Source: Amoebidium appalachense (taxonomy: Eukaryota > Protista > Ichthyosporea). From it: 64,000 nucleotides of DNA. Position 1 is the stretch's first letter. Every line of letters starts with the position of its first letter. Below, piece after piece: positions 12,101 through 56,600 of the stretch. The notes below the pieces were generated by a model that had not been told where the DNA came from, did no database searches, and saw nothing but the letters and a program-made list of their open reading frames with translations. Both the position numbers and the translations under genes were made by a program. The stretch spans positions 2,527,979 through 2,591,978 of the forward strand of contig CAVNZM010000007.1 of assembly GCA_963693365.1 (NCBI GenBank), written 5' to 3'.

Positions 12101-15100
12101 TGCAACTTTCATTGTCCAATCAGAAGAGCCCTATTGGCTCTGGCTGTGGCATCGAGATTGTTTCTGGCTCTTCTGTAACTGTACTCCTCCCATTCAAAAA
12201 AGGGGGGGCCAAAAAAAAAAAAGGGGGGGGGGGGGGGGGGGGGGGGGGGGAGGGGCAAGTCGAAGACGTGTTTCAGTCACTTCGGCTGATCAGTCGATGC
12301 GAGTGTATGGACGGGAACAGGGGGGTGGGTGGGTTTGAATATTGGGAAGGAGAGGCGGGAAGGAAAGGGGCGGTCAGTATTTCTTTCTTTCTTTCTTTCT
12401 TTCTTTCTTATGTCTTTTTCTTGTTCTTTTTCGTTTTTTTTTTTTTTTTTTTTTTTTTTTTTGGGGGGGGGGGGGGGTTTGAATGCGTCAAAAAGTACGA
12501 AGTACACAGGGGGGAGGAGGGGGATGGGGGGGGGGGGGGGGGATGGGGGGCATGGGGGAAAGGGGGGGGGGGGGGGGGGGGGGGAAGGGCAAGCGGGGAG
12601 GCAGGGAGAGGGGGAGGAGGAGGAGGGAAATGGGTGAAAGACACAGAGAGGACGTGTACGTGTTTTCGTTGTGCACACGCCTGCATGTAAAGAGACTCTC
12701 TCTCCCTCCTTGCCTCTCTCCCTGTCTCCCTCGTTCTTCTATTGGGTTCGGAAGGGAGGGCAATGGCATGGGCATGGGCGGGGGATGGGGGGGGGGGGTT
12801 TGAATGCGGAACACAGTACGAAGTACACATACACGATGAGAAGCATGGTGCAGGACACATGCAAAGGCAAACATTCAAGTGTGCAACATCAGCCATGCGC
12901 ACAGTATGCGTCATAAGCAGAGCCCATCCTCAGGGAGGGCCCAAGTCATCAATTGCGTCTGAGTTTCGACCCCTTAGCCCGCGTCTATACGACGCTCCAA
13001 CTCAGACAGCAGCATCAACTGAACTTGGGTGGGTCAACCCGTCTTGATCAAAGACGAGCAGGGTTGCTTATGCAAGCAAGGTGAGCAGAACGGTGAAGAT
13101 GTGTGTGCAAACTAATGCAGTGCAGCGAAAAACGCGTATGTGCTTACAGATGCACGACACAGAGCAACCATGCCCGGTTGCATGGAAGTAAAGATGTCTC
13201 CACACAGTGGTCTGTCCTGAAAGGACACCTCTGAAAGAAGACAGGGGGGGTTTGAATGCGGAACACAGTACGAAGTACACATACACGATGAGAAGCATGG
13301 TGCAGGACACATGCAAAGGCAAACATTCAAGTGTGCAACATCAGCCATGCGCACAGTATGCGTCATAAGCAGAGCCCATCCTCAGGGAGGGCCCAAGTCA
13401 TCAATTGCGTCTGAGTTTCGACCCCTTAGCCCGCGTATATACGACGCTCCAACTCAGACAGCAGCATCAACTGAACTTGGGTGGGTCAACCCGTCTTGAT
13501 CAAAGACGAGCAGGGTTGCTTATGCAAGCAAGGTGAGCAAAACGGTGAAGATGTGTGTGCAAACTAATGCAGTGCAGCGAAAAACGCGTATGTGCTTACA
13601 GATGCACGACACAGAGCAACCATGCCCGGTTGCATGGAAGTAAAGATGGGGGGGGGGGGGGGGGGGGGGGGGGGGGAGGGGGGGGGGGGGGGGGGAGAGA
13701 GAGAGAGAGAGAGAGAGAGAGAGGTGGAGGGAGCACCGGGGGGGGCGGGGAGGGAGGGGGGGGTTACCTTCGACACCATGTCGGCGAAATAAACACCTGT
13801 GCAAAGTAGAGTGTGTGGGTGAATTTCATATGAACCAAAAGAAACTTGCATGAAAACCGTGAAACACTGTGTGGAAACATGAACGAGAGGATAGGCGGAA
13901 AAATCTGGATTGTACACATGGTTGAAGTGTGTGCTAACCAGAGAAGGTTCGATTGATGGGTTCTCAGTACTATTCAATGTTTTTCCGTGCAAGAACAGGC
14001 CGAAAAATGTAATTGCTTCATTATTTGGTCAAATTAAAACCATATATCATGAAAGTCCTAGCACGAGCGTGCAGATGTGTGCGCATGTTGTTTTGCATGT
14101 ATGTGTAGATATGTAGATGAAGTGCTAATATACTGTAGGTGTGTGCATGTCTGTAGGCGTATTGTACGTGTGTGTGTGTACGGCTCTATGTTTGGGCATG
14201 CACGTGGCCACCAAGGCGCTGTACGTGTTTCGTGTGTGCGTGTGTGCTAGTGCATGTGTTGTGTGGCCACTATGTTTGTGTGACAGCAAATGTTCTAACG
14301 ATACTTGAATGGTCTCTATTTGATTGAACATTGTTGTACACAGTATTTACTGTGGGAGGTGTGTGTGTGTGTGGGGGGGGGGGGGGGGGGGGGGGAGAGG
14401 GAGGGGAGGGGAGAGAGAGAGAGAGGGGGGGGGGGGGGGGGGAGAGGAGAAGGGGGCTCACCTTTCCCGAACATGTAGCCTGTCTGTAAGGTTAAGAAAA
14501 AGAAAAGAACAGACGAAGTGTCAGCAAATCAGCCCCCCCTCCCCTCCCCCCAACCCCACAACACACACACACACACACCCCTCCAAAAAAAAACCCAGTC
14601 CCAACCCTAGGTGTAAGACCTCCCACTTATTAGTCTTCATTCATTTGTCCAAGAATTTACACAATCAAACAAGTTATCATAACATTGTCACTTAAGGCAG
14701 AGTCAACATGCAGCATGAGATGCAGCCGTTCAAAATCCTTCCCCTCCACAGAAAGGAGAAGTAAGGCATATGCTTCAGCAAGAAAAAAACTGATGTGTGT
14801 GTGCACGTGCCTGAATGTATGTGTGCGTGTGTGTATGTGCGTACGTACGTACGTGTGTGTGTGTGTGTGTGTGTATGTGTGTGTGTGTGTACACTGCGCG
14901 CGCATGGATGTGTGTGTTTGTATGCATATACACACACACTCTCGAATGCGTGCACAACGTTAGTCGATCGTGTGTAAGGGGGAGACAATACAAAGGGAAC
15001 CCGGTAACGGGACGAGAAAAAATAATCACCTACCACTGGAGCCTCGGGGGGAGCAATTTTCAGGCCGTTGGACAGAATACCGGCAAAGTTGGTGATGCGT

Positions 15101-53600: not shown

Positions 53601-56600
53601 CTACACTTTTGTTGTCCGTTGTGAATGTGTACTGCGCACTCTATGGCTCATCCCCCCCCCCCCCCCCCCCCCCCAACCACCACCACCACCAACACCAATG
53701 CCCCCCCCCCCCCCCCCCCCCCCCCCCCCCCTTCCCCAAGCGTCCCCTTGCCACTTTTCTATTTGACCTTCCGGGAAAAAAGGGAATGGGGGGAGGGGGG
53801 AGGGGGAGTGGGGGACGGGGAAATGAAAAATCAGGGGCGTGTCCTTCGAACCCCTCCCCCCCCCCCCCCCCCCCCCCCCCCCCCCCCCCCACCCACCCAC
53901 CCCTCCCCCCCCCCCCCCCCCCCCCACACACACACACACAAGCACACGTTCTCACATTGTACCCGGCCCTGGCTTTCACTATTCCTCCCCCCCCCCCCCC
54001 CCCCCTTCCCCCATCCCGCTCCTCTGTCTCTCCTCTTCCCCTCCCCCCCCCCCCCCCTTCCTCCCCCCCCCCTTCCCAAAAGCCACCCACCCCCCACCCC
54101 CTCCTCCCGATCGGTCTCTTAGTAGCTGCCCCACACCTTCTTGTTTGCTTTCCCCCCCCCCCCCATCCTTTCTGCTCTCTGTTGCCCCTCTTTTTCCTCA
54201 TTCATACCCTCCTTCAGCAACATTAATTTGTACCCCCTCCCCGTCTACCCACCACCACCCCTTTATTTCTTTAAGTTTTTTGTTCGGCCTGCCTCCCTTT
54301 TTCCTATTCGTTTAGTTTCTTGCTCGACAAAAAATTCATCTCTCTGCTCTCCTGTTTACCTTTGCGTCTGCTTTTCTCCTGATATTACCGACCGGTGTAT
54401 GAGATCGTGCGTGCCTCTCCGTGTGCCTTTTTTTTTTTTTTTTTTTTTTCCCTTCATCTTTTTTGTTTTTTTGTTTTTTGTCTTTTTCTTCTTTCTTTTT
54501 GTGGTTGTTGTTGTGGTGGTGGTGGTAGTGGTGGATTGGTGGTTGGGTGGGTAGGTGTGGGAGTGAGAGGCGAGGCGGATGTTGGCGGATCTGAAGGGGG
54601 GGAGGGGGCGGGAGGGAAGGGGGGAGGTAGGGAGGAGGTGGGGGGGGGGGGGAGGTTGTGTGTGTGTGAATGTAGGTGGGTGGATGGACTGAGGGGTTAG
54701 GGGAGGGGGGGGGGTTGGTTGGTTGGGGGGGGGGGGGGGGGGGGGGACTGCCTGCCTACCTGCCTGCCTGCCTATCTAATGTGTAATGGTGTTTTCCTGC
54801 ATTGTTTTTTGGCATATACTTGTGATGGTGGAATAAATGCCGGTTGATGTGGCAACAAAAGTGATTTTGGTGATGGGGATGGTGCCTAACCTTCTGTTCG
54901 TATCATCCCTCCTCCCCCCCCCCCCCCCTCCCCCCCCCCCCCCCCCCCCTCTTTCTCCTTCGTTCTTAATATTACCCTCGACTTTGTGCACGAAGTGTAG
55001 AGGGTGGGATGCCACGGGTACAAATGTGAAAGAAGGGGGGGGGGGGGGGGGGGGGGGGAGGGGCAAAAACCATCATGAAAGCAGGTTTCTAAATAAATTT
55101 GATTTGCTCTACAGATGAGGGGTGGATGAATGCGTGTGCTGGAGAGCTACTGCGCACACGGGCACACCTGTTTTTGCAGGATAAGGTACACTTTTTTTTT
55201 GCTTTTTTTTGGGTCCCCACATCTTTCTTTCTTTCTTTCCCCCCCCCCCCCCCCCCCCCCCCCCCCTCCGCGCTCTGCCCTCTCCCCCTCCTGTGTCTCT
55301 GTCTTCCTCCTTCCGTGCCTCCATCCGTCCTTCCTCTCTTTGTATCCCCGCCATCTCTGTCTCCCCCCCCCCCCCCCCCCCCCCCAGCCCCCCATCCCTC
55401 TCTCCCCCCTCTCCTCTACCTCTCAGTCCTCCTCCACTTTGGAGGAGGACTGAGAGCCCCCCCCCCCCCCCCCCCCCCCCCGTTCTCCCCCCCCCCCCCC
55501 CCCCCTCCCCCCCCCCCCCCCCCCCCCCCTCCCTTCTCTGTTTCCTCTCCATTTCTTTTTGCACCGTGACCTCCTCCTCCTTCCCCTGTCTCTCGCTCAA
55601 TGTGCTTTGGTTTTCGTAACCCTCTTACTTTATTCTGATCTTTACGGCTGTCCCTCTCTTTGTAGCTTCCTTATACATGCCTTCATACCCGATGTCTATC
55701 CTATATTTATACTCTATCTTTATCTTTTCTGACTTATTCTTATTCTCATTTCTTATGCCTATCCTATTCTTTGTATCTACATATCTATCCCGGTTTCATC
55801 TCTGTCCTATCTTTATGCTAACCATAAGCTTCGCACCTTACACATATCCTTATGGTTATACATATCCTGTTATCTTTACACATATCCTTATGGTTATTAT
55901 ATCCTGTTATCTTTATACATACCCTTATCCTCCTACCCAATGCCTATGTTTTCTGTATATTCACCCCTGGCTTTTACTATATTTATCTTGATTTTTATAC
56001 TCATCCTTATCTTTTGGACCTACCCGCATCCTTATAATTATCCTGCTATTACTGGGTTCTTATCCTTACCTTTATATATCGTGTAGTTGCATTTCGTACT
56101 GTGTTCCGCATTCTACTCCCCCCCCCCCCCCCCTCATTCCCCCCCCCCCCCCCCCCCGGCCCCCCTTTCGTTGTTAGAGGGGCCTCTCCTCATTAATCTG
56201 TCCTCCTATCCCTCCCTCCCTCCCCCCCCCCCCCCCCTCCCCCCTTCCCCCCTCCCTCTCTCCCTCCCAACCTTCACTAGACTCTTTCCCTCTCTCCATC
56301 TCCAAATTCATCTATCTCTTCGCTCCCTCTATCTCTCTCCCTCCCTCCCCCTCTTCCTCCCCCTCCCTATTCTACCCCCCCCCCCCCCCCCTTGCCAGCT
56401 CCCCCCCCCCCCTCCCCCCTTCCCCCCTCCCTGTTTTGCCCCCTACCCACCCATCCACTAGCCCCAAGACCCTGTTCTCTGAATACAACACGGGTACACA
56501 GACACACACACACACCTGATTCCTTACACACACACAACCGTGCACACATTACTAGCATATGGACAGCCAAAAACAATCATCCATATACATGCTCGGTGGA

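What the first reader, a model, noticed from the sequence alone, without database searches (positions are those of the whole stretch)
12478..56115. Poly(C)-anchored, host-co-oriented structured retroposon family (family A), about 13 copies, all intronic
Seen: copies at 12478, 12799, 13251, 19194, 21258, 23819, 29225 and 32910 (PARP1 introns, minus strand) and at 52956, 53124, 53312, 53585 and 56078 (BtpA introns, plus strand). In host-sense orientation every copy stops at the same end (...GTACTTCGTACTGTGTTCCGCATTCAAA or a variant) and runs into a C-run, while the other end is truncated variably (30-445 bp). I see no poly(A) tail, TIRs, ORF or tRNA-derived head, and I found no copy outside introns. 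At least two subfamilies and both young and old copies are present. Established: a fixed 3' end with 5' truncation is the signature of target-primed reverse transcription, and microsatellite insertion bias is known for Naiad/Chlamys Penelope-like elements. Inference: a non-autonomous retroelement that targets or carries poly(C). It could exploit, or even generate, the sense-strand C-runs that pervade these introns.
Basis: partly seen in the sequence, partly recalled or inferred. Interest (0 to 1): 0.85.

Follow-up and report, generated by a model that had tools for sequence, protein, structure and literature searches.

The report
Poly(C)-targeting Penelope-like retroposon in Amoebidium
A short, non-coding, very abundant repeat sits at runs of C in the introns of the animal-related protist Amoebidium; it is likely a parasite of a Penelope-like retrotransposon and behaves like the C-run-targeting Chlamys elements of green algae, but its predicted helper enzyme was not found.

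Summary
Real. All 13 listed copies are present, intronic and on the host sense strand; a 14th degraded copy lies outside both genes. The host is Amoebidium. The unit is 445 bp plus a C7 tail. 12799-13647 is a partial head-to-tail tandem, and contigs of three runs cross its C7 junction, so the element carries a short C tract. 13 of 14 3' ends abut C>=6 (background 2%), 5' ends vary, and three loci show target-site-like duplications that begin with the C-run. One run implies thousands of copies. No ORF, tRNA head, hammerhead or Rfam match. This is the described behaviour of non-autonomous Chlamys Penelope-like elements: (C)n target, intronic, 5'-truncated, tandem. Membership is untested because no reverse transcriptase could be reached. 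The element exploits the C-runs rather than making them: it precedes 10 of 148, and they cluster after 5' splice sites. Co-orientation mostly follows target supply (P 0.01-0.07). The scan had no note on this DNA; it noted a similar kind of element in a moss-like genome.

The parts
12799..13243 (-). Complete 445-bp monomer of the young subfamily; downstream unit of a partial tandem in PARP1 intron 24
13244..13250 (-). C7 junction between units; element-carried tail
   Evidence: contigs X1-5, X9-29 and X14-11 cross it; deletion variants rare in X1, about 15% of depth in X3
13251..13647 (-). 5'-truncated 397-bp upstream unit (pseudo-LTR-like), 2 differences in 398 from the downstream unit; tandem flanked by a 15-nt repeat (C12 + 3 bases)
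13195..13243 (-). Predicted 5'-terminal hairpin of the monomer; two truncated copies begin at its 3' base
   Evidence: (z about -2.0); role in truncation is inferred
12889..13028 (-). Predicted long stem and adjacent hairpin; includes the segment best conserved between subfamilies
   Evidence: local z -2.3 to -4.0; 3 of 47 pairs change on both sides among 3 copies
12478..12508 (-). 31-bp 3' fragment, closest to the 32910 subfamily (94%)
19194..19419 (-). 226-bp older copy, 75% to the young unit, PARP1 intron 18
21258..21657 (-). 400-bp young copy (97%), 31 nt from the 5' splice site of intron 16, C-runs on both sides
23819..23965 (-). 147-bp copy, 83%, intron 13
29225..29274 (-). 50-bp copy, 90%, intron 8, 11-nt flanking repeat that begins with C6
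32910..33033 (-). 124-bp copy of a second subfamily, intron 3, with C19+T on both sides
38506..38598 (+).
   Evidence: nhmmer E=8e-11; 71% over 83 nt to the 53122 copy
52958..53057 (+). Second-subfamily copy, first of a cluster of four in a BtpA intron
53122..53277 (+). Second-subfamily copy, 156 bp
53312..53442 (+). Older first-subfamily copy, 83% over 90 nt
53587..53651 (+). Short second-subfamily copy, 86% to 52958
56078..56117 (+). 40-bp 3' fragment in the last BtpA intron
9104..37110 (-). Host PARP1 gene, 28 coding exons, 1027 aa
   Evidence: Pfam zf-PARP and PADR1 pieces; exon 1-2 splice in RNA contigs
50681..57418 (+). Host BtpA-family gene; first and last exons translate to parts of an EukProt protein labelled Amoebidium parasiticum

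Best explanation
A 452-bp non-coding repeat unit (445 bp plus C7) that likely spreads as a non-autonomous Penelope-like retroelement by target-primed reverse transcription at genomic C:G homopolymer runs, using an enzyme that is predicted but was not found. Shown: fixed 3' end at C-runs, variable 5' ends, a partial head-to-tail tandem with a shared C7 junction, flanking repeats that begin with the C-run, very high abundance, presence in RNA-run contigs. Inferred: (1) a tandem source copy is transcribed on the host-sense strand, possibly as part of host pre-mRNA, since no Pol III boxes are seen on that strand; (2) a helper endonuclease nicks the G strand of a run; (3) the freed G-rich 3' end pairs with the C7 in the RNA and primes synthesis there, which fixes the 3' end with no need for a poly(A) tail or ribozyme; (4) synthesis usually stops early, sometimes at a hairpin or a 3-4 nt microhomology, and sometimes runs into the next unit to give a pseudo-LTR; (5) second-strand nicking just past the run duplicates it. 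Introns and the sense strand are hit mostly because that is where the host keeps its C-runs.
For: 3' C-run in 13 of 14 copies against 2.2% background; exact flanking repeats of 15, 11 and 20 nt at 3 of 8 loci tested. Partial tandem in the Penelope arrangement, a truncated copy ahead of a full one. Junction crossed by contigs in X1, X9 and X14; summed depth at the junction-side base 13243 is 454k against 1,096k for the 3'-end positions 12815+13267, so roughly four in ten. Summed X1 depth 1.0-2.0 million against 24-26 for single-copy DNA gives a rough floor of 1,300-2,600 copies. X14 is an RNA run (splices PARP1 exon 1 to 2) and holds element contigs including the junction. Chlamys elements target (C)n, mostly lack hammerheads, and have non-autonomous forms with pseudo-LTRs and head-to-tail multimers (PMC8557442); Chlamys-9/N4_cRei make new intronic, 5'-truncated insertions of median 128 bp (PMC9977147); lengths here are 31-445 bp.
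Against: No autonomous partner, reverse transcriptase or GIY-YIG fragment was seen: none among 73 window ORFs scanned (67 chosen by complexity from 517, plus 6 added), and no genome is held. No 30-40 bp Penelope tail and no inverted 5' copy at the one tandem. The one Penelope-like enzyme tested in vitro starts at RNA sites not homologous to the cut DNA (PMC11167929), unlike step 3. Chlamys hosts reported are green algae, spike mosses and slime molds, not opisthokonts. The flanking repeats are low in complexity (T follows 119 of 219 C-runs) and two overlap element sequence; 5 of 8 loci show 8 nt or less. No empty site was seen. RNA cover could be intron read-through.
Confidence: 0.6

Rival explanations
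1. A SINE-like element moved by a LINE (non-Penelope) whose endonuclease prefers C:G runs: a poly(C) mirror of L1/Alu poly(A) priming.
For: The flanking repeats begin with the homopolymer and run a few bases past it, the geometry known for L1 (recalled). Pairing of tail and target fits LINE priming better than the non-homologous start reported for one Penelope-like enzyme. RepeatModeler LINE and unclassified classes are listed for this genus (figure not seen).
Against: Frequent head-to-tail units with a near-invariant junction are typical of Penelope-like elements. No tRNA, 5S or 7SL head. (C)n targeting is documented for Chlamys; my one search for other cases (listing only) showed none by title.
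Confidence: 0.2
2. A retrozyme-like element: a self-processing RNA, with a ribozyme not yet described, that circularises and is copied round the circle by a borrowed reverse transcriptase.
For: Monomer size and tandem habit resemble non-LTR retrozymes. The junction is nearly invariant and is present in an RNA-run contig. Whole-unit folding z -2.2 on the host-sense strand, local z to -4.0. RNA contigs show one allele at sites where DNA is mixed, a weak hint of few source transcripts.
Against: No hammerhead core with a closed stem II on either strand and no Rfam ribozyme at E<=10. Family variants break the predicted structure as often as chance: 11 of 28 against 11.6 expected (28 variants taken from the 40 rows shown, duplicates in the second unit dropped). 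The two tandem units differ at 2 sites, and at one of them both alleles occur in other copies, which fits a linear multimer or template switch better than one circle.
Confidence: 0.1
3. A rolling-circle DNA transposon (Helitron- or Replitron-like; features recalled) that gives fixed one-sided ends and tandems.
For: One fixed end, truncation at the other, tandem copies; a small 11-nt palindrome about 17 nt from the 3' end (sequence).
Against: No CTRR 3' end, no G+C-rich terminal hairpin, no terminal inverted repeats; target-site-like duplications at 3 loci, which rolling-circle elements do not make (recalled).
Confidence: 0.05
4. Not a transposon: a satellite-like unit scattered by recombination or repair between C-runs.
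For: C-runs flank both ends in 9 of 14 copies; four copies cluster within 700 bp.
Against: Strong polarity: all 14 copies reach the 3' end or its remnant, only one reaches the 5' end; several subfamilies of different ages share that end.
Confidence: 0.05

Closest known systems
Chlamys-N4_cRei (non-autonomous partner of Chlamys-9_cRei), Chlamydomonas reinhardtii; PMC9977147, passages read
   Same: Non-autonomous, (C)n target, intronic insertions that track the target's distribution, short 5'-truncated copies (median 128 bp).
   Different: Host is a green alga; autonomous partner known and new insertions observed there. Here the host is an ichthyosporean, the partner is unknown and sequence homology could not be tested.
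MRC1 and other non-autonomous Chlamys elements; PMC8557442, sections 6, 9, 10 read
   Same: Pseudo-LTR partial tandems, head-to-tail multimers, no canonical hammerhead, target duplications hard to see inside microsatellites.
   Different: They share a 3' end with a known N-terminal GIY-YIG element; not shown here. No tail or inverted 5' copy seen here.
Non-LTR retrozymes of animals; 10.64898/2026.07.22.740005, first of five parts read
   Same: Short non-coding tandem units thought to derive from Penelope-like elements.
   Different: They are defined by a type I hammerhead in each unit, absent here, and are reported as excluded from introns.
L1/Alu poly(A)-primed insertion (recalled)
   Same: Homopolymer tail matching the target; duplication starting with the homopolymer; 5' truncation with microhomology.
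   Different: C instead of A; short templated tail; no Pol III head; frequent tandems.

Membership tests
Non-autonomous Chlamys/Naiad Penelope-like element | 3' end shared with an autonomous element encoding N-terminal GIY-YIG, CxC and RT | not testable with these tools
   No genome held; no hits in metagenome or viral contigs; no RT or GIY-YIG among 73 window ORFs
Non-autonomous Chlamys/Naiad Penelope-like element | Frequent 5' truncation with a fixed 3' end | tested here: met
   14 copies of 31-445 bp
Non-autonomous Chlamys/Naiad Penelope-like element | Partial tandem forming a pseudo-LTR | tested here: met
   12799-13647; junction shared with other copies
Non-autonomous Chlamys/Naiad Penelope-like element | Insertion at (C)n or (CA)n | tested here: met
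   13 of 14 at C>=6 against 2.2% background
Non-autonomous Chlamys/Naiad Penelope-like element | No canonical hammerhead ribozyme | tested here: met
Penelope-like elements generally | Optional 30-40 bp tail or inverted 5' copy | tested here: inconclusive
   Not seen at the single tandem; described as optional
Non-LTR retrozyme | Type I hammerhead in each unit | tested here: not met
   Motif scan and Rfam negative
Non-LTR retrozyme | Circular RNA intermediate | not testable with these tools
   Only assembled contigs were available
SINE (tRNA/5S/7SL-derived) | Pol III-derived head with A and B boxes | tested here: not met
   Rfam finds only the tRNA at 50178; no box on the sense strand, one imperfect B-box-like word on the other
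Helitron / MITE / LTR element | CTRR end with hairpin; terminal inverted repeats; TG...CA repeats with PBS and PPT (recalled) | tested here: not met
   Ends inspected; PBS and PPT were not searched for by script

The most novel reading that the evidence does not exclude
An independent poly(C)-primed retroposition system in a close relative of animals: a promoterless element transcribed inside host introns, primed internally at its own C7 by a reverse transcriptase outside the known Chlamys clade, which doubles each C-run it enters and so feeds on, and locally amplifies, a sense-strand C-run signal that follows 5' splice sites. A milder version (about 0.5): the first Chlamys-type system in an opisthokont.
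Probability: 0.2. Interest if true: 0.7.

Novelty: new member of a known kind. Interest (0 to 1): 0.4.

Why it matters
If a Chlamys-type helper is confirmed, it extends C-run-targeting Penelope-like elements from green algae, spike mosses and slime molds to a unicellular relative of animals. The family covers 3.8% of this window in a genus whose genome is about half transposons, so it may be a main unclassified repeat. The host grows axenically and long-read genomes of several isolates exist, so target choice and priming at a homopolymer can be tested directly. The mechanism type is already described, which limits the surprise.

Tried and rejected
Whole genome: none held, so genome-wide orientation, end tables and the partner search could not be run. 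Exact element words in JGI metagenome contigs and IMG/VR: 0 matches. The repeat finder was swamped by microsatellites. Rfam: no ribozyme or small-RNA match. Hammerhead types I-III and Pol III boxes, patterns recalled: not met. HDV-like and twister folds were considered by eye and did not fit. Coding potential: longest stop-free frame 92 aa, no Pfam match, Atlas hit 0.84 with low recognition, not meaningful. Conservation of the predicted fold across family variants: no better than chance. Words before C-runs: no hidden excess of element ends; T and CT dominate. Empty sites: no joint skipping the whole tandem among those listed (9 rows not shown), and short-word contigs break at the C-runs, so this is uninformative. 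Gene around the 14th copy: no RNA cover at 38263-38767 in X14 or X20 and no X1 cover at 38364-38666; a hole proves nothing. No run was on record as RNA; X14 and X20 were judged RNA from splicing. PARP1 homolog search with one exon found nothing; exons were mapped by hand instead. Dfam and Repbase cannot be searched here. Literature: Amoebidium + Penelope, 0 papers; Penelope + ichthyosporean + retrotransposon, 2 telomerase papers, listing only; no ichthyosporean names in the one supplement file held for PMC8557442 (it also lacked 'Chlamys-N', so its sequence files were probably not visible). Figure S2C of PMC11244446 was not visible and may already count this family as unclassified, LINE or Penelope.
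Full report
Host and setting. The window is eukaryotic and rich in microsatellites and C/G runs. 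Its BtpA last exon is identical to part of an EukProt protein labelled Amoebidium parasiticum, so the host is Amoebidium, an ichthyosporean; the species is not settled. A genome of this genus is 202 Mb and about 50% transposable elements (PMC11244446, section 6 read). No genome was available to me. I mapped PARP1 as 28 coding exons giving one 1027-aa frame with all introns GT-AG, and BtpA by tblastn.

Observation. All 13 listed copies are recovered. All lie in introns and read in the host-sense direction. A 14th degraded copy at 38506-38598 lies outside both genes (nhmmer E=8e-11; best reversed-window hit E=0.034), and no gene is shown around it. There are at least two subfamilies, which share a core near unit positions 270-340 and the last 30 nt but differ between them; identities to the young unit run from 75% to 99.5%. 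13 of 14 copies have C>=6 within 8 nt of the 3' end, against 2.2% of background positions; 9 of 14 also have one within 10 nt of the 5' end.

Anatomy. 12799-13647 is one partial tandem: a 397-bp truncated unit, C7, then a 445-bp unit. Laying four runs on it shows the junction is not private. Contigs of X1, X9 and X14 cross it. Summed depth beside it is about four tenths of that at the 3' end. One- or two-base deletions in the C7 are negligible in X1 and about 15% in X3. The unit is therefore 452 bp and carries a short C tract. Exact flanking repeats that begin with the C-run and go on past it occur at 3 of 8 loci tested: 15 nt at the tandem, 11 nt at 29225 and 20 nt at 32910. These are low in complexity and two overlap the element by 3-4 nt, so they are suggestive only. 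Two young copies start within about 2 nt of each other at the base of a predicted 5' hairpin. The unit has no long ORF, no terminal inverted repeats, no poly(A) signal, no Pol III boxes on the sense strand, no hammerhead and no Rfam match.

Abundance and RNA. X1 matches the window exactly over 1,403 and 956 nt at depth 24-26; its summed depth over the element is 1.0-2.0 million. The tool warns that this sum is no copy number. Dividing by the largest possible overcount (31 words per base) gives a rough floor of 1,300-2,600 copies at 85% identity or more; the window's own density would give about 44,000 per 202 Mb. 20 of 24 listed runs hold half or more of the sampled words, under six organism labels and 8 studies. 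X14 behaves as RNA and has element contigs at depth 60-270, one across the junction. Strand, ends and level cannot be read from contigs, and intron read-through is not excluded.

Structure. The host-sense strand folds somewhat better than shuffles (z -2.2, against -1.7 for the other strand), with local z to -4.0. In a 75%-identical copy a 9-bp stem is kept by one double change and three wobble changes (three sequences only). Against this, 28 family variants break the predicted fold 11 times, with 11.6 expected. 'Structured' is plausible locally and not shown overall.

Orientation and C-runs. Sense-strand C makes up 71-74% of C/G runs in the two genes. All copies being co-oriented has P 0.011-0.021 if the 13 are independent and 0.044-0.070 for 9 clusters, so target supply explains most of it and a small extra bias is possible. 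The element directly precedes only 10 of 148 first-in-cluster C-runs of 10 or more (counted from the list). In PARP1, 15 of 27 introns have C>=6 in their first 100 nt and none has G>=6; 30 of 90 sense C-runs lie within 150 nt of a donor, in 16% of intron sequence. The runs look like a host intron feature that the element uses. Each insertion would add one run by duplication, which may seed clusters such as 52958-53651, but this cannot account for the bulk.

Mechanism. Most likely (0.6) target-primed reverse transcription by a Penelope-like helper: nick on the G strand, pairing with the C7 of a tandem transcript, early stop or run-on into the next unit, and duplication of the run. The sequence features are shown; every enzymatic step is inferred. 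The two tandem units differ at two sites, and at one both alleles occur elsewhere, which favours a linear multimer or template switch over a single circle. The main point against is that one Penelope-like enzyme starts in vitro at RNA sites not homologous to the target (PMC11167929, passages); a LINE helper stays open at 0.2.

Comparison. Chlamys elements target (CA)n and (C)n, mostly lack hammerheads, and include non-autonomous forms with pseudo-LTRs and head-to-tail copies (PMC8557442, passages and sections 6, 9, 10). New Chlamys-9/N4_cRei insertions were all intronic, of median 128 bp, and broadly followed the (C)n supply (PMC9977147, passages; the preprint added 'more frequent than expected'). 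This family works like them in every feature I could test. It is not filed as Chlamys, because the defining shared end with a GIY-YIG/RT element could not be tested. It fails the retrozyme and SINE definitions. I found no paper linking Amoebidium and Penelope-like elements; Dfam, Repbase and subscription papers were out of reach.

Verdict. A real, abundant and apparently undescribed family; a new member of a known kind, in a host lineage not reported for that kind. Interest 0.4.

Noticed in passing
window 9104-37110 (-): Sense-strand C-runs sit just after 5' splice sites: 15 of 27 PARP1 introns have C>=6 in the first 100 nt, none has G>=6. Possibly a splicing signal of this lineage.
   Followed up: partly
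window 51927-52592 (+): Three extra partial copies of the start of BtpA exon 2 lie in tandem ahead of the working exon.
   Followed up: no
window 11567-11626 (-): Exact 60-bp duplicate of the start of PARP1 exon 25, behind its own CA tract and acceptor.
   Followed up: no
window 30884-31190 (-): Repeated partial copies of the end of PARP1 exon 6 and its donor in the following intron.
   Followed up: no
window 38352 and 34199: An X1 contig identical to 36950-38352 continues into sequence matching 34199 onward rather than 38353: a structural difference or assembly issue, unexplained.
   Followed up: partly
window 60795-64000 (+): Copia-type LTR retrotransposon; gag-like ORF (Pfam Retrotran_gag_2, zf-CCHC) ends at 62024 and pol-like sequence continues in another frame.
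   Followed up: no
window 39419-39820 (-): Intronless Cys/Lys-rich ORF with no Pfam match, covered by deep RNA-run contigs.
   Followed up: no
window 47673-48773 (+): Intronless trypsin-family gene with a signal-peptide-like start, in an intron-rich region.
   Followed up: no
window 50178-50259 (+): tRNA gene upstream of BtpA.
   Followed up: no
window about 34280-34515: Stretch in PARP1 intron 3 bounded by imperfect inverted repeats, MITE-like by eye.
   Followed up: no
window 4500-5250 (+) and 53482-53731 (+): Other short repeated units that also end at C-runs, unrelated to family A by BLAST; possibly further C-run-associated repeats.
   Followed up: no
window 25500-25880: Array of a 24-bp unit, about 15 copies, in PARP1 intron 12; its Pfam SAM hit is an artefact of the repeat.
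   Followed up: no
window 13081/13533 and 59235: Contigs of four runs leave the young unit at the same place into a shared other sequence, a subfamily with a different 5' part and a lead towards the helper; a 13-nt word of it recurs at 59235.
   Followed up: partly
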